From Ophelia neglecta (lineage: Eukaryota), in NCBI GenBank assembly GCA_965285935.1, contig OZ260666.1, forward strand, positions 66,898,001-66,962,000: DNA of 64,000 bases, written 5' to 3'. Numbering within the stretch: position 1 is the first letter of the stretch; each line of letters begins with the position of its first letter. Position numbers and translations under genes: made by a program. Under the pieces are notes generated by a model. The model worked only from the letters and a program-made list of their open reading frames with translations. It ran no database searches and was not told where the DNA came from. This document shows positions 3,001 through 60,000 of the stretch, piece after piece.

Positions 3001-4897
3001 GCTGGTTATAACAACAGAACGGCACTTTGGAATTCATTGATATTGAGCCTTCTATAACCAATTAGTTGAATGTCGCTCACGTCACGCGACACAAAACAAA
3101 TGGATCCCTTGTACAACACGCCCATTAAATCGTTCCGAAATTATCAAGAAGACCAGCAGACTTAGAACCATAAACATCTATAACAACTGCCTAGCACTAA
3201 TTTAAGGATACAAAATCATTCATAAAAGCGTAAAATTGCAAAAAGGACGGGCTATAAAAGACTATAAAAAAACTCATTTGCATACCCTCTACTGCTACTA
3301 ATTTGTTGTCTTATTATGTTGGCTTAGTTTGCAATACCATTACATGTTTTACATCTTCAAAGCAGAGCGTAATGTCACTGAACAGGTTGCAATCTCGTGC
3401 AAACCCAAAAGAGTAAGAGTTAAGAGGAGTGTAACTTCATGTTTTGCCGTTAGGTCAATGAAAAACACATTCGTGTGCAGACGATGAGACCTGGATGGTT
3501 TAATAGGGCCGGTTTGATGATATTGCCTACTGCTCACCAACAGCCACATTACTCATCTGAAAGCCTGATTGCAATTAAAGAAACAGTGGTCAAAAATTTA
3601 TTGGTATGGCCATTTTCTGCTGTGCACGGGGAATTTATATAAAGAATTCACTAATTTTCCCGTCTTTCTTGTTAACTGAGACACTTTCATTTATAGTCTC
3701 AAAGTATTATGAGAAAGCTTACACCTTCATAGCCTCTCTTGAAGCATATTTCATCTCTATACTACTTTGACAACTGACTCGTTTGTTTGTAATCTTACTC
3801 GCATCATGGAAACTACTTTTATTTCCTTACACGTTTATGTAACCTTTAGAAGATGCAGATCGAGTTATTCATGAGGGTAGTGATGTGGCAGATGCTTCCT
3901 GATGATTTCTGACCGATTAAATGGACTATTCTAGAACACTGATTTGGTGTTGCCTGCCAGGTATCCACTCCCAATTTTTCTTAACCGTTTATGTGACAGA
4001 ATCGAACACTTTTCGGGGCTATCAATATAAGTGCTCTGATGCCTAGAAAGATTACAATGAGCATGCCACCGATGCAAAAGTAAAACTAAGCCAGCCCTAC
4101 CCATGAGGACTAGTCATATGCAGTTGTCCCCAGCCAGATTAGACGTTGAACAAGGCCTAGTGATTTCTTCTACGACAGAACCTATAATTTTTGTGACAGT
4201 TCTTATCAATATATTGCTAATTTAGGAAGCTAGGAAAACAAATATTTCCATCAAATACAAGAAAAAACAAAAGCATGTTTTCACCTAGCTTTTAACAGCC
4301 TGCGATAAAAAAACAGATCAAAAACTGCAAGAATAACACTTTCAAATTCAAATGCAGTTGTTAATTGTAAGGTATGCTAATGCATGTATCATTTATATTA
4401 CATTAATTGTAGGTCAAAAGTCTATGACAATACATATCTATCTAAAAAGCTGAACAATCTACTCCATCGTCCAATAATATAATTGTAGAAATAAAAGTGA
4501 GTCTAATCTAATCAAATACATTTGCCATTTGATATAATAACTTTCATAATATATCTCAATAAAAGAATCCTTACCCATAAACCGCCTTGGGAGCCGGTTG
4601 ACCAATGTGATAGAATAAGCAACTCAGCTATTTACACCTAATTATTAAATTGAGCCGGCTAAATGCGTGATTCCTTGTGAAAAGCACATCAAAGATTTCA
4701 GTCTCATAAGATGGCGCACGTCAGAAATACGCCGATTTATTGGCTTCTGAAGAACCGCGAGGGTTAAACGCTCTGGGCGAGCAATCAGCCAGTCTCGTGC
4801 CTTAAACATCTAGACTTAATAATAGAGGTCATTAGTTTATAAGTAGACTAAAGAACATAGACATTTTGCCCTTGCAGATTAAAAGGCAACTTAATTA

Positions 4898-5140
4898 CAG
4901 GATCTAGTACATCAGAGAGCCTTGTCCCAAGTTTAGTTTGGGGACCAGTTTAGTCTATAACCGATTAGCTAAGACCACATTAAGAGCTGTTGTCATTGAC
5001 CAGAGAGACCAAAACGACAAGGTTTAGAGACAAAATCGAGCTTACAGAAACACCGTCTTGCTAGATAAGACCGATTAAACTCTTTACTTCTTAATTTAAA
5101 CAAAGATAAGAGTTAAACTGATTACAGAAACAGGGCCCTG
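4898..5140. mobile_element. Highly diverged copy of the 54321-54565 MITE family
   Basis: Shared blocks CCGATTAGCT, TGACCAG, GACCAAAA, AAGACCGATTAA, TAAGAGTTAA and right end CAGAAACAGGGCCCTG. Confidence 0.6.
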
Positions 5141-7396
5141 GACCTTCTTTTCTGCCCATATTTGAAAATTAAACACAAAATATAGAGTTAAATAATAATA
5201 TTATATAAACAAAACGTAAACTTACAATAAATTTGAACATGGTCATTTCAAACCACCAATAAGACAATACCGTCACCTCTAAGTCTTGACCAAAAACAAT
5301 GTGTGTAACGGTGGCTGTGATCAAATACGACAAATTGAAACTCGTGTGACAAAATAACAAACGTGTTTTTTGAATTTATTTAATCATCCCCTACAGTCAC
5401 GATAGAAACTTTTGTACATTTATTTTACCAATGTAACGACAAGCCTGATCAGGGGAAATTGAACACAACTGCATAATTCGTAATCCAGTTTCAGATGAGT
5501 ACGCTGGAGGTAAGTGTATACACATTATTTGGGCAGATTTTGGTTACAGGTTTGAAGTATTACAGAGATGTATATGCTGCTGTTACGTAGTGATAACTTG
5601 TGAATACAGGAAATCTTTTCAACTGGGACGCAGACACATACTACTGAGACACAACCAACGTCTATCATAAGAAAAACAATCTAAGAGCTAAACGGGATAA
5701 CCGGGTAAAGTGATTGAGCTAAAATCACTTCCAATTACACTTGGGAATCATCCAGTCAGATTGAGCAGTGTCATATAGCATAAGCTATGCAATCTCATGA
5801 CTCGTAGACTGCACAAGTATACCAAGATATCCCATTACCATAACAACTCTGGGATCAACCATTGAGCTGATTGCATTTTGGAATCTCTGCTTATTGATTT
5901 AGGTTAATACATGACAGAATTGCAATCTTTAATGTAAGATTTGAAACTAATCCGCTTGATTATTTACCAAGGCGCAATTCAACTGTATAAGATGGGCTCA
6001 CTGTTCAAATTTTGGTAAAAAATAATCTGATAGTTTTAATAAAGAATTCGGTGACCACTTCATGATGATCATATATTACGAATCTTTGGAAGCGGAAAAT
6101 CAACATACAAGATTAAAAATGAAGATGCTCAATGCTGCGGGTAAATATAACAAGGACGTTCAGGTAACTATTACCGCAACAAATATAAAGCTGCATGCCT
6201 GTAAAATTTTAACCAAAAGTTAATTTCATTGGAGGCCTAGCCCGTCAAAATGCATGACCGCCAAGTAATATTGTGTTTGTTTTTAACGTCACTGAAAAAG
6301 GATGCAATTGCTAGCAGAAATGTGACGGAACTAATTGCGAGCGCCCAGGAATTTTTTTCCATCCCTTTATACTTGCATATCGCATGCACCAGGCACAACC
6401 CCACTTACATATCCGGAATCATGCAGCGAATAATAATACGTTGGGCTTTTGCCTCGATCCACGACACAACCACTAGGATAATAACAAATCAGCAGTGGCC
6501 TGGGAAAATGCGTCTCGAAGGAATACCGTTTCGTGGCAGAGGGCCAAATATGTCAGTCTTCCCTTCCACCGTTCTGTTTAATATTTTTGGGTTTTCAGCT
6601 CTGTTAGATACCACTATAGGGAATCTGTAGGTGTATCAGATTGAAATAGGGAAAGTCTGCAACAGGGAAAGCTCAGCATAAAAGATGATTTATCTCAATC
6701 AGTCCGTGTGGTGAACACGGTTTGTCGAACGATCAATATGACCACTATTTCTATTAAAATACAGCCTCTTGAAAATATGTGGCGGCGATTGTAGGCTATA
6801 TTGTTAGATAATACTTAACTGCACTGAATCACCCAGCAGAAATTGCATATTATAGAGATATTACTGAAAATATTTAAAGCACATAAATGCGATAATTTCC
6901 CAACATTTTCGAAAGCATTCTGGTTATTAAGTTTCTGTATGAAGTTTTCCGACTAATGTTTTTATAGATAAACACTTACTATTGTTCCTTTCGCGGAAAT
7001 TTCAAGCTATAAACAAAATTATGCCCAACGAAATGTCCGCGCTCGGCAAGTCTTAGCTTATAGTATTGACTGATTTATATCCTCATGAAATATGATTTAA
7101 GAACGCTCAATATTTACAATTATGTCTGAACATTTATTTGAATTATATTCATTTCTTTAATTATCATTTGAAAAAAAACAGTCCTAATGTCAACTATTAT
7201 TGATAGGTTAATATGAGACATCTCATAGTATGTATATGTTGAACACATAATTCAGGCAATTAACTAAAAAAGTCTCATTCCATTACTAGAGCCAGTATGG
7301 TTTATCCCTTTTATCGAATGCTCTTCTTTCGGAAAGACATATTGGTGCTATGGACATTTTCAAAGCAATGCTTATGATTCCAAGCTGCAAGACCGC

Positions 7397-22340: not shown

Positions 22341-24897
22341 CTGCTATTCTATTGCCAGTCCGAGATCTTATGATGCAATGAGGGTGTTGTTCAATTCATA
22401 TTGGCGTTTCCGGACAGCAATTATTAACATTAAAGCCACGCGGACGGTATTATGTTTGTATCAGGAAGCCAGTCTATAGTTGGATAGACTATATTCGTGC
22501 GTACAGGAATAAAACGGTAGTGGATACACGGCAGAGAAATCCAAAAGGTGAGGTGATTTAATATACTATGGCAAAGACCAACCAGTTTCTACTAATATGC
22601 TACAACATTGTAACCGATTTTGCATATTCACATATAATCAAAGGAATCGTGTAAGAGGACTAATAGAAATTAAATCATCAATCAAGTAATGCGACAAATA
22701 GATTTGAGCACAGATGTAGCCTTCCATACTTTGCTTTATGTTTTGTTTTGCCAACCACAGTTTTTATCACCTTCCAAAATGCGTCCTTTTCAGAAACTGT
22801 TAAAAATCTAAATATAACGGCATGTAGATGGATGAAAAACCAATCAACTTCTCTCTTTCATGGAATATAGCATTTGAATTGAAAATATAATGTTTACTTA
22901 CGACAAGCTTTCCTTGGCAAATGTTTCCCTTATTGCTGAATAGGACTGTTAGTCCGAGTTTTCCATCGGTGCTATTTAACGATTCACATGGCAAAATTCA
23001 AGTGGCAACTAAATTATCTAAAATGCTATTCACAAAAATCAACAGTCCACAGCCCTACACAGACCTGATCAATGTATGCCAATTTTCTACTGGATAGAAA
23101 TCGGTTATGGTAGAGTTATTCGTAGTTCTTCTCAGTCGAGGGTGTTCTTAGCAAAGGTTAGGCTGCCAGTTTTGATTACACCGTTATTTTTTCATTCGAT
23201 TATTAAACGAAACCACTGAAAACGCACCTCAAACATTGTTCAACAATGTTGATTGTTTTTGGCTCACAGAATTTCCGTTTCTGCCACTTATTCACTTCCG
23301 TTATTTAAACGAATTAAAGTGTGATGCTGATAATGGTAATATAATAAATATTTCTGTATTCTTTTTAAATGTTCCTTCATATATCAGTAGAATGACGCAC
23401 GCAGGTCCCATGCTATAAAACACAACAAAGTAATGTTTCCAATAATGTTCCTTGAAAAATGTCTTGATCGTTTGAATTTATCAGCTGCGCACGACGCCCT
23501 AGGCACCTGTCAGTTTCACATACTCATATCCACAACACATTTATCAACAGCAAAACTGTTCATCGAGAATTTTATGAACATCAACAGAGCCCATATGTTT
23601 AACCATTTTTCATGTTACGTTCACAGCATCGCTCTCATATTTTTGCCATTATATGCTTAACGTTTCCCAACTTTAAGCATATAACTTATGTTATCATATT
23701 CTATCATACAAGCGAAAATCCCAAAGCAGTTGCAACAATACAATTACCACATATAAACAATCTTATTGGCTCTCAAATTCCACCTTGTGTTTTATTCAAA
23801 CTTTGGACTTATAAATGTACTTTGCAGTGTACATGATATGTAGTCTTTATATTTGTTGGTAGACAAAAAGGGTGTTTTGGGGCGTAATGACAGCTGTGGT
23901 GCCAGGTACCCGATGAGTTTGACTAACCGTGGTATTTTGACCATAAAAAATATCATTTGCAAAGTCAGGACTCTTTAAAACGACACAGTTGTAAGGATAT
24001 GAAGTCATTGTATTGGATACAAACTATTCATATCATATCGGCAAATATATATTGTTATCAAACGATGGGCAATATATTGCGGAAAAAAAACTTGTTCAGA
24101 CGATAGAGTAGCATAGGTCGTAGTATCGGAAGTGTGAGTGTGTGGCCAAACTAGTCCGCAGTGAATGATTTTCGAGTGACTGTTAGTTGGACCGATTGGT
24201 GGCCTGTACTCATCTGTACAGCAGCGGGACCTAAATTTAAGTTTTCATAGGGTGTTTGATGACCTACTGCATGAGTCTAAAGAACCCAAAGCGCAAACAA
24301 CTACTTCTTGCAATAAGCGAATTCAGTTCTAAGCACAATGCACCAAAATTTCGCACCCAGGCCGATAATTAAAATAAGTGTAAACCTTAGGATTTCAAAA
24401 TAGATTTTGATAAGTTGATACCGTGATTTATATTCATGATAGATAGACGATGGTGATAAATTGTCAAAAACATTGTAACCAACTCATTTGTATTTTATGA
24501 GGCTCTTTGTTAATTCAGTGCTCTAATACAAGAATGGATGGAAGCATTACAATTTTGACAAATATAACATTTTCATCCTTTGGTAGTTTTAGTGTACGGT
24601 TATCAATATTGTTCACAGATATATCATGGTGTTTGGTCAATGCTTCCCTGAGCTACAACACGACTAAATGAAATGCTCGTTAGTTTAATACGGATTTAAT
24701 TTCGTGTAATGTGTAAAATTAATTTTATTAACTAGTGATAGGTAAAAATCATTGCACTATGGCCCACCATTTTGTTTCCCTTTAATTTCGTTTTATCTAC
24801 ATCCTTCGGAAACCAAATTTTCATACAAACAAAGCTTTTGAAACATGTTGTATCGTCTTAAACAAATGGTTTATTGTACCACTGTATATGAGAAATG

Positions 24898-24903
24898 CCT
24901 TAC
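24898..24903 (-). other. 5' splice donor of the THSD7-like exon
   Basis: Minus strand reads ...TGTAGACAG|GTAAGG. TSR similarity stops here and the ORF hits a stop 11 codons later. Confidence 0.85.
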
Positions 24904-25407
24904 CTGTCTACAGCTTGTCCAATATCCAATCCTCCAGCTATGTCTGGGACGGGGATCTATAAAGGTACACAAGGGAAGGTCCCGACACTCATCCTGCTCG
25001 GCAAGGTTTTCGCATGTCTTGCCTCCAGATGAGGGCAGGAGCAGTACACGGCGGCTGCGATATCGAGTAGAAGGAGTACAAGTGGTACTACAATCGCTCC
25101 AATCTGACCAATCACTAAGTACACAGTCCTGCTCACAGGGGGAGCAGTGTTGCTCCGTCACGGGGGCATCTGTGCCAAGTTTTCGGCAGTAGAAGGGTGG
25201 GACTAACGTGCTGCTATCCTTATAAACACACGAGATATCCCTAGTCCGTTTACACTTACAGCAGGATCCCTGCTCTCTATACACACAACCGGACCAAGGA
25301 GTTGCCTGCCACTCAAACGTTGTGTTATATCCACATTCCATTGTCTCGAAAAATAAGAAATATCCTATACTGATAAATAACCATGGATTTAACCTTCTAT
25401 ATTCCAT
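24904..25407 (-). CDS. THSD7A: First coding exon of a thrombospondin type-1 domain-containing protein 7 (THSD7A/B)-like gene: signal peptide plus TSR repeats, 168 aa, ending at a phase-0 intron
   Basis: ATG at 25407 in a strong context (AAG ATG G). MEYRRLNPWLFISIGYFLFFETMECG looks like a signal peptide. It is followed by FEWQATPWSGC...RTRDISC...C...EQHCSPCEQDCVLSDWSDWSDCSTTC...RYRSRRVLLLPSSGGKTCENLAEQDEC...HSWRIGYWTSC. This matches the alternating TSR pattern of THSD7 as I recall it (QxC..PCQQDCIVSEFSAWSECSKTC..RTRHVVAPPQFGGSGCPNL..C..YSLHVGPWSTC). The exon ends at donor CAG|GTAAGG. A versus B orthology cannot be resolved. Confidence 0.88.
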
Positions 25408-25845
25408 CTTATTGGTTAGATCCGATTCTATTGATTTCCTCTGGTCAAATATATATTCCACGATCTCCTATATCAACTAAAAAACACCAAATATTGGGTG
25501 GCTCCATCAATTGAAGCTCCTTTTGAAGTTTTTCTTTTGCTCCGGCCGTCTTAATTTCATATTCATTACAAATATTACTGACATCTGACTGATGTTGCAT
25601 AGCCACATCAGGTGCATTACTGCAGAGTCCTAAAGTGTAATACGGTGTTCTGGAAGATCGAAATCCTACAAGTCTCCTTGATGGTACTAGAGTCCATTTG
25701 ACTGCTGGCAATAGAATTCTTACATAAGAATTATAGAAGTAAAATCATATTTCCATAAATCTGTTTTGTAATTCCACTTGCTGATTAAAGAAGACACGAT
25801 TTACTTTTCCACTTCTGAAACCTGAAAATAAGTAAAAAAAGAAAA
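25408..25845 (-). other. Probable 5' UTR part of the THSD7-like exon (25408-25821) and its splice acceptor (AG at 25822-25823)
   Basis: Minus strand has a long pyrimidine-rich tract ending TTACTTATTTTCAG|GTTTCAG|AAG, with tandem AGs 7 nt apart. A weaker alternative acceptor (GTTTTTTAG near 25477) cannot be excluded. Confidence 0.6.
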
Positions 25846-51557: not shown

Positions 51558-54320
51558 AACCACCGCCCGACAGTTGGCTTTCTGTAGTTTGACAGCAGAT
51601 AATGTGTACGAACTTGTTCCAGGATATTTAATTTAAATGTAAATCAATTAAACATCCACCTTATATATTTATAACTAGTTTAATCAGCAATTTGTTATTT
51701 AAGGCGCTGCATAGAGAGATACACTTATAGTTCTTCTTTTGCGTGATTGCGCTGGGCAATGAACCATGTGATACGATGGAAGTATGGCAATAAAAGACGA
51801 TTATAAAATACACATGATTTATGCAAAGCAAAATATTTTATCGAAATTAAAATATCGTTACACAGATTATAATTACAGACAAGGCAGTTTATAAGAAACT
51901 ATACTATTCCAAGATTCAGGATGAGACCATAAATCGGCCCAGACCCATCAGGAACGGTCAAATGAAAAAAATCTTTACCTTTCTTCTTTGTATTATAACG
52001 ATGGGCATTTATTTGATCTACACAAGCTCAGTCAAGTTCCTGAGCCCCAATTGAGCCCCTGACCATATACTAATCATTATAAGTGGCAGTTGCTATCCAT
52101 CTGATATAATGGCAACTCTAATGTGATGGAAGTTTTCTCATTACATAGGAAAAGAACATCCCAATTACTTCCAAATCAAATGATCAAAATCAAATTGGGT
52201 CACATGGTACGTGAGTGCAAATAGCAAGGTGATTAGGCTATCACAGACTAACACATAATGCAACCTAAACTCAACAGCAATCTTACGGTGCATCTTTTGC
52301 ATGAAAAACAAGGTTTCAGTAACCTGCAAAGTGAGTAACCTTCAAAAACTGTTCTAAATATCCTACGTAAAGGAAACAGAAAAGAATCGCATGTGCCGTG
52401 TACCGACATTTCAACAATGAAACTATGGACATTAGATTGGGTTGATCGCGTTAGGGTTAGGGCTGACAAGTATTCTCTGTTGTTTTGACTTGAAGCCATG
52501 AAAACAGAGGTAGACAAACGTATTAACAAATCACAAGTTACACGATTGTCAAACATCCTGCTCTAAACCTAGATGTAAAAGCAACTTCCAATTAAAATTT
52601 GTCATTGTTTCAGTGGACATATCAACAAATAATTTATTCAGTTTTAGCAAAACTTACGGACAGGGACAGAGACAGATTCAGGCAGACAGAATTAATCTTC
52701 AATCAGCAAATTTGATTTCAGTGTTGAACATTTACATTTATTCGACTAAACACCTTGACTGGCACGCGCAGTATGTTAATGTTTTTGAAGAAATAGGCCA
52801 TTGCTAATGCGATCCGAAAGAAGATAAAATATCATGATACAGGAAATCATCATAAAAAGTTTCTAATATACATCACGGCCAATTAGGGAAGCTTAGTTCG
52901 CTTACATCTTGATTAATATTGTCGGGGGAAAAAACATAATGAAGATAGATGATTGGCCAGGTAGTTTGGTTAGTTAGTAAATTTTATATACCTCTCCTCG
53001 AAATGTGATCTAGGTCCGATCAAGCAAAATATTGATTAACTACATGACATCCATATGGTCTTTTCAGTGTTTTTTTTTCAATTTCGGAATGGATGTATTA
53101 ATTTGACTTTGTCTGCTATTTTTATCATTCCCTTTCTGTTCAGTGGCTGGTCTTTTTAGATGCACTCGGAAGATAAAATCTTTTAAAGAAAATTTAAAAC
53201 CAGTATATCCTTACTTGGCGGGCATCTCTAAGTTTTCTTGGGCTTATTGTGAGCGATTATGAACAAATCCGAGTATGCTCCGTACACGTATTTATGTCCT
53301 ATATAATAAATGGCTCAATTGCTTACAACTGAGCGTATTTCCTTAAAACATCTTGTTAGATAGTGGCCTCATAGCGTCATTTATATATCGAAACCAGAAC
53401 AAGACACATTGTATGGTCGTGGGTCTACACGGACAAACAAACACAAACAAACTTTCCATTATACAACTTAAACAGAATTGCTCCACTAAAACCAAGTTTC
53501 CCTAGGCTCTCATGTATGCAAACTGGAAAGGGTTTTACGGCTATTTTTCCAAACCTTATACACAAAACATTAAGCTAAGTGTCATCTCGTGTGGTAGGTA
53601 TAACGACGATGAAGAATATCTCTTAGACCACCTCAATAACTGCATAATACCGTGGGAATATTTTCACATGCTGCACATCGGTCTTCAGCTGAGTGATATC
53701 TGTATTTATGCAGTGCAATCCATTAGGTTCAATCCTGGGCGTGGAGGACGAAGTCCAGAACCACGGAATCAAAGTGCTTTCTTTGATAGGGATCTGCACA
53801 ATTGCGTCATTCTGTTAGTAGGGTACATATATCGGTTATTAACAACACTAAAAGTTCGCTGTACATGTTTACCCAATTCATTAACCAAAAGGTTTCTTTG
53901 AAATTGTTGCTTTCAATCTCGTCGGACAATTCATATGGATGGATGTGAGGTGATCACTGTTGAAAAGGTCATTTTGTTTCAAACTATATATTATGGCATT
54001 TTCATTTATCTATCCTATGATGAAATCCAAAAGCTGCACAATGTTTCAAACATAAGTAATATTAGTCTCTGATCAGTATGCCAAACCTCTAGTTACAAAG
54101 CCTAAGAGCCAAGTTCAATTGATACCAGTCCTCCTGAAGTCGACCAGCCATAGTAAACAATGAAGGGACTTGGTGAAATAAGGCCAACCATGAAAAACAG
54201 AAAGAGCAGCCATAAAGACAGGCATTGAATAATGATATAAATGCACATGATACGGGTAAAATAGTCAACTGCATTATTAAGTTATACGAAAGTCAAAGGT
54301 ATTAATATTTCGTCACATCC

Positions 54321-54565
54321 CCTGGGGCCGGTTTCTGGAAGGGGTCTTACGTTTAGGGATTAGATTACCCTAAGACCGATTAGCTGAGGCCATGTTAAGC
54401 AGTGTTTCCACTGACCAGGATTAAGTGTAGGACCAAAATGGCTAGGTTTAAGACCTAATCCAGCTTCCAGAAACCTCGATTAGTAAGTTAAGACCGATTA
54501 AGCACTTTAATCCTGATTTTAATCCGAGTTAAGAGTTAAGACCGCTTCCAGAAACCGGGGCCAGG
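54321..54565. mobile_element. Harbinger/PIF-like MITE, best-preserved of three copies
   Basis: ~30-bp TIRs: CCTGGGGCCGGTTTCTGGAAGGGGTCTTA and TAAGACCGCTTCCAGAAACCGGGGCCAGG. Internal TTAAGACCGATTA-type subrepeats. Superfamily inferred from the GC-rich ends and CWG flanks. Confidence 0.75.
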
Positions 54566-54859
54566 AGATTCACCAAATAGAATAGTTATGATGGTTGTAA
54601 ATGTCATTTGCCTGAGTACATTGTGTCGTTGGTACAGATACTTATGTAAAGTATTTTACCTAAAAATTACTTAAGGGCTCGCATTGACACATATAGCAGT
54701 TAATGACACAAGGACCACTTGTTAATCACGTTCAAAGGTAGTATGTTACAAAATATGCAATAGTAATATGCAAATTCACCACACAATAAATTTGGATACA
54801 AATATGATCTCATCAAACTGAGGGAATAAAGCGACAATCATGGAAAATATGTAAGACCG

Positions 54860-54872
54860 TAAATGATCTTTA
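54860..54872. repeat. Target-site duplication of the CR1 LINE (3' copy)
   Basis: TAAATGATCTTTA, identical to 57075-57087. Confidence 0.9.
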
Positions 54873-54883
54873 GTTTAAACATA

Positions 54884-54939
54884 TTTATTTATACTGGTTC
54901 CCTCCAATAGCTGCAAGCTAGTCGTGGGAGGTTACCAGT
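54884..54939 (-). promoter_or_regulatory. LINE 3'-terminal stem-loop and AATAAA
   Basis: Minus strand ACTGGT-AA-CCTCC...TAGCT-TGC-AGCTA...GGAGG-GA-ACCAGT (54893-54939), then AATAAA (54884-54889). 3' stem-loops are the known RT-recognition signal in CR1/L2-type LINEs. Confidence 0.7.
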
Positions 54940-55388
54940 CTGTATTTACAAAAATCGACTTATTTACAATTTATCATATATCATAGAGATAATATCAATG
55001 CTAAAAGTACAATAGGTATAACTGGGATGTAATAACAAAAAAATTATAATTATAATGATAATGACTGTGCAATGATATGATATCGCCAAGAGGATTATGA
55101 ACTTGGTAGGCAGAAGAGATTTTATATAATATATGCGTTGTATAAAATATAGGTATCTTGATAGTAAGAGATATTTCATGTAAACGATAACACAACTTAT
55201 TGTCCATCTAAGAGGGTTCAAGTATATCAAGTTATAGTTTTGATTATGTGCAGTTTACATAGATAGAGTAGATAAATACAGTATTTTGATAATGACGTAA
55301 ACGAGGGCGACAGAGAATAGTTATTGCCTGTAAGGAGGCGATCACATCAGGGCTATGCTTAATTTTTTATTAATTGCGAGAGTATTAC

Positions 55389-55591
55389 CACAAGTGACAT
55401 TTTTCAGTAGGCATGGTCGCTACACCATGCCCAAACAAGGCGCCCGGCAGAGCGCACCGACCCAGGAACCCGCAAGTGTCATGCCAAATGTGGAGAGGCG
55501 TACAACCCATGAGCTCCCCGCCAAGCGCAGCGCCGCACGCCAAGCCCGAGCATAGCACCGCGACCATGTCCCACATAGATGTCAAACTGTG
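55389..55591 (-). other. Long G-U-rich RNA hairpin in the LINE 3' UTR
   Basis: 55412-55455 pairs in register with 55525-55568: 28 Watson-Crick plus 10 G-U pairs out of 44 on the minus-strand RNA. Pairing continues inward, and outward via TGACAT/ATGTCA and CACAG/TTGTG. Confidence 0.75.
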
Positions 55592-55797
55592 TAGCACAGC
55601 TCCGACAGTTGCCACCAACATTACATGTCGTGAAATATATTTTGAATGACGATTTGTAATGGATGACAATGATTTGAAATGATCGAATGAAGGTGGGGTT
55701 GATGAAGTAGATGGGGTTATCGTGTTTTTGATGAGTACATATTTACAAAGAGGAGTTGTAGACCCGAAATAAATAAATGGCCAGAGAATAGCTACGC

Positions 55798-57075
55798 CTA
55801 ATGACATCGATTACAATTAAGTATGAACGATTCAATGATTTTGCTTTTTATTTGGTCTAGATGGTCGTTAGTGGGGTAGGCAATGCTATGCATGTTTGGA
55901 GGAAGGTCGTGTTCATCAAGGAATGACAAAAGCGTTCTTCGAAAGGGTTCAAATAAGGGACAATGGAAGAAATGGTGATCACTGGTCTCGGAGCATATGC
56001 CGCACTGACACAAAGGAGAGTCCAGGCAGTGATTTTTGAAAAGGTCATAGTTCAAATTGCTGCAGCCTAGTCGCATTTGGCATAATATAATTTGCGTGAG
56101 TCGAGATCCGAGGTAGAAATATGTTGGAACCTTAGGCGGTAGGTTTCCATAAAAATGGTGTCGGAAGTGAGTTTTGATTCTTGTTTCTTTCAAGTCTACC
56201 GGCAAAGTATTCCAATCTGTCACAGACTGTGGGAGAAATGACCTCTTATATGTGTCAGTGCGGCATCTTGGAGAGTACCGGTTCAAATTGCCAACGCTAC
56301 GTGTGTTATGACCGCCGGGCTGGTAAAGAGGGGGTGCCATGCCAGCAAGATAATCAGGGACGTTACCATTAATGATATCAAACATTTTGATTAAACGGAG
56401 ATTCCTTCTTCGCTGTTCTAGAGTCGTAAAGGAGGTCTCGCTGTACAAAAGAGCATGGGAAGTTCCCTTGCGTGCCCCGCAAATTATACGCAATGACTTT
56501 AGTTGTACACTTTCCAGCCTGTCAACATCGTATTGGTTACAGCCATCGAATATGATACAGCTATACTCAAGGACAGGGCGGATGAAAGAAGTATATGCTA
56601 TCTCAAGGCCTTTTCTGGAACATTTGTTCTTTAAAAATGTCAATAAATTAATTCTTTTGTTAACTTTGGCAATTATATAAGACACGTGTTCACCCCATGA
56701 CAATTTTGGGGTGAGAATGAGGCCAAGGTGAGTCAAACTATCACTTGCAGGAATAGGAGTGTTCTTGATTAGGACACAGGGTTTCAAAGGATTGTTACGT
56801 AAGCTAAACACCATAAACTGGGTTTTGGATACATTAAGACTTACTAGCCATTCCTTGCACCAAATGTCGAGGTTCACAAGATCAGTGTTAATTAAAGCAG
56901 TTGCGTTCAGAGCGTCGGAGGTGGAATAAGATCTGAAGAGTGACGTGTCATCGGCAAATAAGAAAATGTCACTGGACACTTGTCTGGTTATGTCGTTAAT
57001 GTACAACAAGAACAATAGGGGACCCAGGACGGAGCCCTGGGGCACCCCAGCCGAAACGTGTTGCCAGCTGGACAT
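55798..57075 (-). CDS. LINE ORF2 C-terminal part: later reverse transcriptase motifs, thumb and C-terminal CCHC-like motif (425 aa, 5'-truncated)
   Basis: Motifs GVPQGSVLGPLLFLLYINDI, LFADD, HLG, YTSFIRPVLEY, SFLPQSVTDWNTLP and CQCGICSETSDHHFFHCP. No stops or frameshifts. The endonuclease and N-terminal RT are absent. Confidence 0.93.
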   Translation of the reverse strand: MSSWQHVSAGVPQGSVLGPLLFLLYINDITRQVSSDIFLFADDTSLFRSYSTSDALNATALINTDLVNLDIWCKEWLVSLNVSKTQFMVFSLRNNPLKPCVLIKNTPIPASDSLTHLGLILTPKLSWGEHVSYIIAKVNKRINLLTFLKNKCSRKGLEIAYTSFIRPVLEYSCIIFDGCNQYDVDRLESVQLKSLRIICGARKGTSHALLYSETSFTTLEQRRRNLRLIKMFDIINGNVPDYLAGMAPPLYQPGGHNTRSVGNLNRYSPRCRTDTYKRSFLPQSVTDWNTLPVDLKETRIKTHFRHHFYGNLPPKVPTYFYLGSRLTQIILCQMRLGCSNLNYDLFKNHCLDSPLCQCGICSETSDHHFFHCPLFEPFRRTLLSFLDEHDLPPNMHSIAYPTNDHLDQIKSKIIESFILNCNRCH

Positions 57076-57087
57076 AAATGATCTTTA
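57075..57087. repeat. Target-site duplication of the CR1 LINE (5' copy)
   Basis: TAAATGATCTTTA, identical to 54860-54872. RT similarity stops here. Confidence 0.9.
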
Positions 57088-60000
57088 ATATTATAAAGGT
57101 ACCGTTGTAAGGTTGCTACATTCCTAAGTACTAAAGGACCCATTTTTAATCTAATCGTAATCCGAAATGACGCCTTGTCAATCAAATGCAAATCCGATGG
57201 AATTATTTGTTAGATACCATTCTCCAAGGGCAGGCCAGATCCCATAAACGTTATAGGAAAGCGATAATATTGGGTCCTAGTGCCGTAGTACCATCATCCA
57301 ACCGTGCTGTACTAATTACTCTGCAAATGCTATTGTTACAATTGAACACAAAGTATCTTGCAGGTTTTCGATTCACATCATTGGATAATAACCACTTTCC
57401 AAATGTTAATTTTGATCCTGAGACCACAAAGCTTTATTCCATAAATATATTTTATTTGTCCCCTTTCCTTCCCAAATTGTTGTCTTTTATTTCTTGATCT
57501 TTAATTCAATCACGGTTGTCCGTGATCCAGTTTTTCATTCTCCCTTCACCAAAGAGACCAACAGAATAGGTGTTTTGTCTCCCGCAAAGCGAAAAATAAG
57601 TAACATTGGCGGAAAAATTGCAAATGTGCCTGGTTTCTTGATGTGCACCCAACAGGGGATTGGTAGACATGGTATAAAGTATGTTCAGGAAAGAAGAAAA
57701 ATGAAGCTCACAACCTATGCCTTCTGTTGGCGCATTCCATCAAACCCAATCAAACCTAATATTTAACTGACAAATTAGATATATATAAATTTCGCGTAGC
57801 TGTAAACACATTTGCTACTTAATTTTTCCTCGTTTTGCTTGCGACAATAAGTTCAATATATTACTTAAAAACATATCTCACTTGTTTTCTAATATGTTTC
57901 TTCTAAAGCAATCATAAAAGTGTAAATAAAGTAAGTGTAAGCGCATCTATAGGCTTAATATTAAAGCAAAGACAGTATTTGCATTACCTAAGTCATATAT
58001 TGCACATATGGACATCTTTTAAACACAGGTTACATATTCTGTCACGTACTAATCGATTCTTTCATAGAATATGGCAGAAAGAGACTTGTACAAAATGCAA
58101 TATTGGAAAATGAAATGTATTTGTTTCTTTCCCAAACTCAATAAACAACTGTGTTCAGGGTACAAATTATATCATTAACAGTTTAGCCAGGGTTGCTTAA
58201 AAATGCTAAAAAATGTGCTTTTAACGTGAAGTCCATGCAATGTGATTACGCTAAACACATGTGCTTAAGTAGAAGTTTAACGAGTGTGTCGAGGGGGAGT
58301 TTGTGACCATCTTCTTACCTTCCATACCAACCCAAGCAGCAGCGCAGTATGTGACTTGAGTTATAACAACCGAAAACTGATTATTTGTCACGAAAAACAT
58401 AATTCCAAATTTGCAGCAAAGTTTTCCGAATTAAAAGAGGGAAGAGGTTTGATTTACAAAACCAATATCCAATCTCATTCTGCCTGCACGTTGATGCACT
58501 TCGCAATTATGGGGAAAGGCAGTGTGTTTTTCCAAACACTAATTGCCTAAGTTTTCTTGTTTTAACCATAAAATACTTCCCTAGCAAAAGTTAGCCGAAG
58601 GGACATGAACACCAGGCTAAACCACATAAGTTTACCAGATCAATTGCATGTGACGGATTTGATTACGCAGTACTATAGACCTACGCCAAATTTTAAACTG
58701 AGAAATATCAATTGAATTTGAATTGGTGTTTTATCTCAATAGTAAATATTACATACTCAATAAAATAGTTCTATAATTTTGTATCTAAACTACATATATC
58801 TACCGAATTAATACGTCGTTCCATTATGACAGAAGTACATTAAACAAATAACAAAATGGTATCCGACATTTTGATATTTATCCAGTGCGTTTTTGCAGCT
58901 GTTGGTAAGCGACAAAATTGAGCTGATCGATGAAGTGCTTAAAATCAATTAATTGGTGCTCGCGTAGTTAGTACTTGGGAAGACCAGAAGAAAATGGCAA
59001 TAGCATTTTATCTTTAGAATATTGCGCTGCATCTGACAACTGGTATCTATATATATTATATATATTTTGCAGTAGTGTTTTCAATATGCCCAATACAGCC
59101 AGACGTTATTTTAAGTTTAGCCACAGCCAGATATATGTGATTTCGGGTATGCGGGCCCTGAATTTCAAACAGTAACAGCTTCTTCAAATTTGTTACAGAC
59201 AAACAATGATATTAACTCTCAACACTCGCCCTTTTGATTCTTACTGTTGAAAGCACCGCAATATGCTATGTTTATTATGGCATAGCCACGAAGTACCAAT
59301 AAAAACACAGCAGGTGAACGGAGAATATTTGAGCTGAACTAAACCTGGAAATCAAGCATACGCACGATCTTCTCATATGACCTGAGTGACATTTTAAAGA
59401 AGTAGGAAATATGCCTGGCTCAAACCAACATTCTTCAAACGTTGTTTTTTCCTCTGAATCATCAGATATGCGCAGCAGAACGCAACGAGCCTAAACGAAA
59501 AATTGAATACACACAAGTATGTCATCATTGCTGATCTGAATGCAGTTTATGATGTCCTGATGCACCATGTAGACCAGACTGTTCAAAATAAAACAATTGA
59601 ATCAATGCTTTTATATAGATAAATATATTTTATACCAACTGTTTTATTTATTTCAGACAACTTTTTATGCCGAAGATATTGACCGGGTAAAACTGGATTT
59701 ATATGTAAGCAAGTTGAAATGCGGCACTCTCTTAAAGGACCGACCCTTTGTTGGTGTTGGGAAGGGCGCGTCCAAGCGTATAAATAGTTTTCTTTTATGC
59801 TGACTTTTTCGCCATTTTATATAAGAATTTGTGAGTACCAAACCAAGATAAATTAGTAGTCACGCTGTTATACAATATAACTTTATTTGCTTTACCTTCA
59901 CTCCAGTGTTATCGTATATTGTTTTATTGGTTTTCTTTTACAACACAGACTTTAACGTTCATGTATTCATGAAAAGGGTGATATAGATGTTCTAACAATT

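What the first reader, a model, noticed from the sequence alone, without database searches (positions are those of the whole stretch)
55389..55591. ~200-nt strand-specific, G-U-rich hairpin in the CR1 LINE 3' UTR
Seen: a GC-rich island inside an otherwise AT-rich ~925-bp 3' UTR. 55412-55455 pairs with 55525-55568 with no indel: 28 Watson-Crick pairs, 10 positions that are G-U on the element's sense RNA (A-C mismatches on the other strand) and 6 mismatches. None of the 44 positions is a wobble on the plus strand. Pairing continues toward a short terminal loop near 55486-55496 and outward to about 55389/55591. Inference: a decayed DNA palindrome should not favour one strand like this, so the structure is probably selected as RNA. 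It could be an RNP-assembly, localisation or translation-control element, or a hairpin-RNA/pre-miRNA-like Dicer substrate carried by the retrotransposon. Known: the described CR1/L2 3' signals are short terminal stem-loops, and I do not know of an internal rod this long.
Basis: partly seen in the sequence, partly recalled or inferred. Interest (0 to 1): 0.7.

Follow-up and report, generated by a model that had tools for sequence, protein, structure and literature searches.

The report
RNA-editing scar in a LINE hairpin
A jumping gene carries a real 200-base hairpin that pairs well only on its RNA strand, and because similar hairpins in two related jumping-gene families differ from their still-existing source DNA mostly by A-to-G changes, it is likely a captured palindrome whose RNA was edited by the host's ADAR enzyme and then copied back into the genome, rather than a purpose-built signal.

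Summary
The rod lies in the 3' UTR of a low-copy CR1-group LINE family. The inference 'strand bias means selected RNA' does not follow. Three other families in this genome carry unrelated sense-biased rods in the same UTR slot, and for two of them the source DNA survives. Family B's rod is a captured 88-bp palindromic MITE with 14 of 16 arm adenosines turned to G. Family D's rod arose by inverted duplication, and all 5 arm differences are A>G. In this rod, copies show A>G at 12/421 against 45/7210 outside (7/421 after dropping sites of doubtful polarity), mostly after U, with no T>C excess. The genome encodes an ADAR2 orthologue. Best reading: ADAR edits fixed by reverse transcription and passed on by the element. 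Limits: no source was found for this rod, no RNA data were available, there is no two-sided covariation, and the closest sister family lacks a rod. Some filter on pairing remains possible.

The parts
55389..55591 (-). G-U-rich, A-poor RNA rod in the 3' UTR (80 predicted pairs over 55380-55600: 42 G-C, 21 G-U, 17 A-U)
55525..55568 (-). 5' arm of the indel-free core
55412..55455 (-). 3' arm of the indel-free core
55486..55496 (-). 11-nt terminal loop
55412..55556 (-). Three A>G changes of this copy against the young-copy majority (55556, 55536, 55412), each after U; 55412 turns an A-C mismatch into G-C and recurs in L015; 55536 recurs in L016
55798..57074 (-). 5'-truncated ORF2 (RT C-terminal part), open frame
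   Evidence: longer copy L221 has APE + RT
54873..55797 (-). 3' UTR of the element, about 927 nt
54894..54938 (-). Short 3'-terminal stem-loop-like block, similar in the related families; distinct from the rod
   Evidence: sequence; family tails
54873..54893 (-). AATAAA-containing tail shared by the families, no poly(A)
54860..54872 (.). 13-bp target-site duplication, 3' copy
   Evidence: read
57075..57087 (.). 13-bp target-site duplication, 5' copy
   Evidence: read
55386..55598 (-). 7-bp direct repeat bracketing the rod in most young copies (55598-55592 and 55392-55386); possible relic of an insertion site, may be chance; one base differs in the window copy and in old copies

Best explanation
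The rod is likely a palindrome captured into the LINE's 3' UTR, whose double-stranded RNA was likely edited by host ADAR (A to inosine) and copied back as G by the element's reverse transcriptase, which would leave G-U pairs only on the RNA strand. Steps: (1) a palindrome enters the UTR by MITE insertion or fold-back duplication (shown for families B and D, inferred for this rod); (2) it folds in the element's transcript (predicted); (3) ADAR deaminates stem adenosines (inferred from the A>G spectrum); (4) target-primed reverse transcription fixes them, and an edited copy becomes the source of later copies (the A>G state is shared by the family's copies in B and D: shown; the route is inferred); (5) repeated rounds exhaust stem adenosines, and some G-U pairs close to G-C, giving an A-poor, G-rich island (2 cases seen in B). 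The rod is most likely a tolerated passenger; it may now also be a poorer target for sensors of perfect double-stranded RNA (untested).
For: Family B against a natural copy of its source MITE, over 36-bp arms: 14 of 16 A>G, 2 of 16 T>C (both opposite a new G), 2 of 20 C>T, 1 of 20 G>A; P 5.6e-8 for that many A>G among wobble-making changes under the background spectrum. The MITE itself is strand-symmetric: 340 WC, 9 G-T, 5 A-C in 11 copies. Family D: the 5' arm is the exact 27-nt reverse complement of a hairpin-free unit of another LINE, and the 3' arm differs from it at 5 positions, all A>G (P 0.003); hairpin form in 15 of 15 D loci and 0 of 20 donor loci. This rod: A>G in the helix 12/421 against 45/7210 outside (p 5e-5), T>C 5/762 against 55/7820 (no excess). 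Pooled over three families, A>G after U 11/216 in helices against 36/5970 outside. An ADAR2 orthologue with the catalytic motifs is in the genome. Passenger status: sister family without a rod; young copy L068 lacks it.
Against: No source sequence for this rod was found, so the origin of its own G-U pairs is inferred by analogy. Five of the 12 family-A events lie in old copies where polarity is doubtful; 7/421 remain (p 0.023). In family B, A>G among copies (5/258) is not above T>C (9/631). The neighbour test on existing wobble G's shows no shortage of 5' G (15/52 against 16/58), and A's after G were converted too in B and D. P-values treat cells as independent and use majority-defined structures. 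Editing alone does not explain 42 G-C pairs of 80. Signs of a filter on pairing exist: 5 of 5 non-A>G changes in B keep the pair; shared variants keep pairing in 13/22 against 38/105 private (p 0.057); 5 of 6 near-private changes of the window copy stabilise the fold.
Confidence: 0.65

Rival explanations
1. The rod is now a selected cis-acting element of the LINE RNA (stability, localisation, RNP assembly or translation control), whatever made its G-U pairs. This can coexist with the editing origin.
For: Unrelated rods sit in the same UTR slot in 4 of 15 UTR types sampled. Family D lost the B rod by recombination and then gained a new one, present in 15 of 15 loci. 16 of 16 changed pairs in B still pair. 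Shared variants tend to keep pairing. The rod persists although deletions of 4 nt or more hit it more often (8 in 4068 cells against 19 in 25531).
Against: 0 of 70 pairs with a two-sided change in this family, and the covariation score is not above shuffles. Change rate equals the rest of the UTR, while the ORF is slower. Eight sampled families with 246-389-nt UTRs lacking a long rod, including the closest sister, have multiple copies. No sequence is shared among the rods.
Confidence: 0.22
2. G-U pairs were selected one by one from ordinary DNA mutations, to keep a hairpin while avoiding perfect duplex, with no editing enzyme involved.
For: No 5'-G avoidance among wobble G's. No RNA-level editing was observed, as no RNA run was available.
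Against: C>T is about three times as frequent as A>G outside the helices and also makes G-U, yet 14 of 16 wobble-making changes in B and 5 of 5 in D are A>G.
Confidence: 0.08
3. The rod is a pre-miRNA or hairpin-RNA precursor cut by Dicer.
For: Long stable rod with an 11-nt loop.
Against: No Rfam match in 54500-57500 near any family's threshold. The longest run of Watson-Crick pairs in the in-register core is 9. The loop region is among the most variable parts. An alternative two-hairpin fold exists.
Confidence: 0.05

Closest known systems
Deaminase scars fixed in retroelement DNA: APOBEC3 G>A clusters in LTR elements and AluY (Zaranek et al. 2010, PMC2873906; passages seen)
   Same: A host deaminase leaves a cluster of one substitution type in a retroelement that then integrates.
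   Different: There the substrate is cDNA and the change is G>A. Here it is A>G, confined to an RNA duplex, in a non-LTR element, and shared by a whole family's copies. In the passages seen, that paper reports ADAR clusters only in RNA-derived reads.
A-to-G hypermutated avian retroviral proviruses attributed to ADAR (Felder et al. 1994; Hajjar and Linial 1995; recalled, not read)
   Same: ADAR edits on a duplex in the RNA genome are fixed by reverse transcription.
   Different: Isolated retroviral variants. Here several endogenous LINE families carry near-saturated stems, with the unedited source still in the genome for two of them.
3'-terminal stem-loops of CR1/L2 LINEs and partner SINEs (for example eel UnaL2; recalled; one related paper, PMC2653535, seen as a search listing only)
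   Same: RNA hairpin in a CR1-group 3' UTR.
   Different: Those are short, terminal and conserved. This element has such a terminal block separately (54894-54938). The rod is internal, about 80 bp, and family-specific.
CR1-group APE-type LINEs with a 2A-like motif at the start of ORF2 (Odon et al. 2013, PMC3708506; passages seen)
   Same: Copy L221 has an upstream ORF1-like frame, a DIECNPGP motif, then APE and RT.
   Different: The exact clade (CR1, L2, Crack, Rex1) was not resolved here; that paper's passages do not deal with UTR hairpins.

Membership tests
CR1-group APE-type non-LTR retrotransposon (host element) | ORF2 with APE endonuclease followed by RT, no RNase H | tested here: met
   L221: PF03372/PF14529 and PF00078, no RNase H family at E<=0.01
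CR1-group APE-type non-LTR retrotransposon (host element) | 5' truncation, target-site duplication, short non-poly(A) tail | tested here: met
   13-bp duplication and tail read; truncations
CR1 clade in the strict sense | RT groups with reference CR1 elements in a tree | not tested
No named references held; best database relative 43% identical and unnamed.
ADAR-edited duplex fixed in DNA | Long duplex on the transcribed strand | tested here: met
   (prediction)
ADAR-edited duplex fixed in DNA | A>G excess confined to the duplex and to the sense strand | tested here: met
   this rod 12/421 (7/421 strict) against 45/7210, T>C not raised; B 14 of 16 and D 5 of 5 against source
ADAR-edited duplex fixed in DNA | 5'-neighbour preference (G under-represented, per PMC2873906; U favoured, recalled) | tested here: inconclusive
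   variant events: after U 11/216, A 0/113, C 5/295, G 2/188; existing wobble G's show no 5'-G shortage
ADAR-edited duplex fixed in DNA | Unedited source sequence for this rod | tested here: inconclusive
   none found; searches give lower bounds and would miss an old or extinct source
ADAR-edited duplex fixed in DNA | Host encodes an active-type ADAR | tested here: met
   A_deamin matches at five genomic regions; L217 closest to ADAR2 structures, E 1e-98, CHAE/PCGDAR/SCSDK motifs
ADAR-edited duplex fixed in DNA | Editing seen in RNA against matched DNA | not testable with these tools
   no RNA holder listed
Inserted palindromic MITE (this rod) | Free-standing copies and a target-site duplication | tested here: inconclusive
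   no free copies found; only a 7-bp flanking repeat. Met for the source of the family B rod (8-bp duplication in 6 of 11 copies with both ends found).
Conserved structured RNA under selection | Two-sided compensatory changes | tested here: not met
   0 of 70 pairs in 18 copies; low power, as copies are 80-100% alike and mostly decaying
Rfam families, including pre-miRNAs | Match at gathering score | tested here: not met
   3 weak matches, none over the rod or near threshold
pre-miRNA / hairpin RNA | Phased small-RNA products | not testable with these tools
   no small-RNA data

The most novel reading that the evidence does not exclude
ADAR acts as a heritable, structure-guided mutagen on active LINE lineages: any palindrome a LINE picks up is driven from A-U to G-U to G-C through editing, reverse transcription and repair or selection, and the edited rods are kept because they hide the element's RNA from double-stranded-RNA defences while giving a useful fold. 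These CR1-group families would then be a dated genomic record of germline RNA editing, and many 'G-U-biased, therefore selected' repeat hairpins would be editing fossils.
Probability: 0.35. Interest if true: 0.82.

Novelty: new variant of a known kind. Interest (0 to 1): 0.66.

Why it matters
If right, RNA editing here feeds back into the germline genome and is passed on by an active retrotransposon, with before and after sequences both still present for two families. That makes a question raised in a 2025 review (whether edited A's in transposons get replaced by genomic G; PMC12458077, passage seen) directly testable. It also warns that strand-biased G-U pairing, a common argument for a selected RNA structure, can be produced by a mutator in anything that is reverse transcribed.

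Tried and rejected
No RNA holder listed for the element. Three runs of unrecorded kind, one sample, contigs only, were laid on 54860-56200: they show the family-majority letters at the window copy's private sites and say nothing on editing. Search for an unedited source of this rod: DNA searches, two degenerate patterns (14 matches, all family copies; 17 family copies and 1 non-palindromic chance match with 3 control matches), and local transition-tolerant alignment found none; the B-source MITE is not its source (score 82.5 within a background up to 92). RNAalifold on all 18 rows, including four partial or gapped ones, gave a weak multi-hairpin fold; on 12 full rows it gave the rod. CpG decay as the source of the wobbles: wobble G's are not enriched for 5' C (11/52 against 26/114). 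Clustering of 5' truncations at the rod's base: not seen. Fold-back repair limited to the 5' arm: T>C opposite G occurs on both arms in B, so not supported. A fifth, weaker hairpin (L077, L081) shows little strand bias and was not counted. Branch-by-branch polarity of changes was not obtained, so direction rests on source sequences and on minor against majority letters. Ten literature searches returned no paper describing long G-U rods in CR1 UTRs or ADAR edits fixed in LINE lineages; four returned nothing at all, the terms were narrow, and subscription papers are not covered. No supplements were read.

Full report
OBSERVATION. The minus strand folds into one rod (-111.9 kcal/mol, z -7.0, 0 of 200 shuffles), the plus strand much less well (-68.4, z -2.9, 1 of 200). 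The core is 9% A and 38% G, against 32% and 12% in the rest of the UTR. Rfam has no match over it. The window copy is the best-folding of its family, about 11 kcal/mol better than the young-copy majority.

HOST ELEMENT. The rod lies in the 927-nt 3' UTR of a 5'-truncated non-LTR retrotransposon on the minus strand (57074-54873) with a 13-bp target-site duplication. A longer copy has an ORF1-like frame, a 2A-like motif, APE and RT, as described for CR1, L2, Crack and Rex1 elements (PMC3708506, passages). The exact clade was not tested. The genome (G000, 762 Mb) gave 18 matches to the rod, the window's own included, all in the same UTR; L009 and L011 share flanks and count once. One older copy (L049) and one young copy with the rod deleted (L068) were added.

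SELECTION WITHIN THE FAMILY. In 18 aligned copies, 96% of cells pair but 0 of 70 pairs show a two-sided change, and the covariation score is not above shuffles. Power is low, since copies are 80-100% alike and mostly decaying. Between old and young copies the rod changes at 8/221 sites, the rest of the UTR at 26/656 and the ORF at 11/884. Variants shared by several copies keep pairing in 13/22 cases against 38/105 for private ones, over three families (p 0.057; some of the breaks scored in family B are projection artefacts). So sequence conservation is absent and structural selection is at most weakly indicated.

OTHER FAMILIES. I took 46 of the 150 scored relatives (of 1366 candidates); they fall into 14 clusters and 15 UTR types. 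Four types carry clear sense-biased rods unrelated in sequence: this one (A), B (L107; 28 WC, 14 G-U, 0 A-C), C (L085; 19, 4, 0) and D (tandem 220-nt units; 26, 8, 2). Eight families, including the 54%-identical sister, have 246-389-nt UTRs without a long rod; two share a weaker hairpin with little bias; one had no end found.

TWO NATURAL EXPERIMENTS. Family D shares its ORF and distal UTR with B, but the B rod is replaced by a piece of a different LINE (D'). D' carries the same tandem unit without a hairpin (0 of 20 loci), D with one (15 of 15 loci), and the last partial unit of D still has the D' form, which fixes the direction. The new 5' arm is the exact reverse complement of 27 nt of the D' unit; the 3' arm differs from D' at five positions, all A>G (P 0.003 under the background spectrum). 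Among 29 D units, stem variants are A>G 9/290, T>C 2/493, C>T 0/377 (units not independent). Family B's rod matches a high-copy palindrome found by chance in a flank (642 candidates; score up to 128.5 against at most 56 in 54 background loci). It is an 88-bp MITE-like element: 11 of 16 loci examined had both ends, with 340 WC, 9 G-T and 5 A-C over the arms and an 8-bp duplication in 6 of the 11 (the other five lie in one larger repeat). Against one natural copy with perfect arms, the majority of 15 B copies shows 14 of 16 A>G, 2 of 16 T>C (both opposite a new G), 2 of 20 C>T and 1 of 20 G>A; the two unchanged A's are the innermost; all 16 changed pairs still pair (one of the 15 rows was mis-cut on the 5' arm). 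A 25-locus source majority gave 14 A>G of 20 differences. C>T is about three times as common as A>G outside helices and also makes G-U, so selection from ordinary mutation predicts the opposite mix (P 5.6e-8).

THIS ROD. Counting independent occurrences of minor letters on a tree of the non-hairpin columns, and leaving out letters carried by 30% or more of the rows and columns beside gaps, A>G is 12/421 in the helix against 45/7210 outside (p 5e-5), T>C 5/762 against 55/7820. Five events are in old copies with doubtful direction; 7/421 remain (p 0.023). Pooled over A, B and C: 18/812 against 93/18122; by 5' neighbour U 11/216, A 0/113, C 5/295, G 2/188. Sites recur in separate insertions, two of them at A-C mismatches (55412, 55482). 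Against this: in B alone A>G among copies (5/258) is not above T>C (9/631), C has too few events (1/133), and existing wobble G's show no 5'-G shortage, although such a shortage is the signature given in PMC2873906 (passages). No source for this rod was found. The genome encodes an ADAR2 orthologue with intact catalytic motifs.

MECHANISM. Shown: the fold bias, the family distribution, the sources and A>G spectra of rods B and D, the A>G excess among copies of this rod, and an ADAR gene. Inferred: that the transcripts fold this way in vivo, that ADAR made the changes, that reverse transcription fixed them, and that this rod began as a palindrome like B and D. From established knowledge: inosine is read as G by reverse transcriptase. 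The simplest account is a captured palindrome edited close to saturation and carried as a passenger (0.65). A present-day cis function (0.22) is compatible with that origin and has some support: rods recur in one UTR slot, D regained one, 5 of 5 non-A>G changes in B keep pairing, and three non-A>G changes of the window copy all improve pairing. Templated repair between arms would explain the last two as well and was not separated from selection.

COMPARISON AND NOVELTY. It works like deaminase scars fixed in retroelements: APOBEC G>A clusters (PMC2873906, passages) and A>G-hypermutated avian proviruses (recalled, not read). It differs in being a non-LTR element, helix-confined, family-wide and recurrent. 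It is not the known short 3'-terminal CR1/L2 stem-loop (recalled), which the element has separately. Ten searches found no description of this; they were narrow and miss subscription journals. PMC12458077 (passages) asks whether edited A's in transposons could be replaced by genomic G; PMC13665439 (passages) added nothing on fixation. Other listed papers were seen as search listings only. Verdict: real; new variant of a known kind; interest 0.66.

Noticed in passing
L221:5394-6041 (-) and 4717-5393: A 2A-like DIECNPGP motif precedes the APE domain of this family's ORF2; in this copy an insertion of about 680 bp with palindromic ends splits ORF2 just after it.
   Followed up: partly
L167-L196 against L197-L216: Family D is a recombinant: the ORF and tail of family B with the ORF2 end and tandem units of an unrelated LINE in its UTR; a second small hairpin at the junction looks perfected by templated copying.
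   Followed up: partly
L224-L253, e.g. L242, L239, L238: High-copy 88-bp almost perfectly palindromic MITE with 8-bp target duplications (hAT-like, recalled) and variable internal duplications.
   Followed up: partly
window 55388-55590: The window copy has 6 near-private changes in the rod against about 10 in the other 2 kb (p 0.003, tally by eye); the three that are not A>G all improve pairing. Unexplained.
   Followed up: partly
L068, L015, L017, L135, L165: Several copies lack all or one arm of their rod; L015 and L017, from different subfamilies, resume at nearly the same base in the 5' arm. Possible skipping by reverse transcriptase.
   Followed up: no
window 54317-54569: About 250-bp element with 33-bp terminal inverted repeats, MITE-like, just downstream of the LINE.
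   Followed up: no
window 24871-25467 (-): Open frame with thrombospondin type-1-like repeats (label from recall), probably an exon of a host gene on the same strand as the LINE.
   Followed up: no
L217 (G000:C1:51216456-51219944): The ADAR2-like deaminase domain lies in two adjacent long frames (243 and 180 codons) with little or no intron between; whether this is a tiny intron, a frameshift or an assembly error was not checked.
   Followed up: no
L077: A copy with two successive 3' tails of related families, suggesting a template switch or nested insertion.
   Followed up: no
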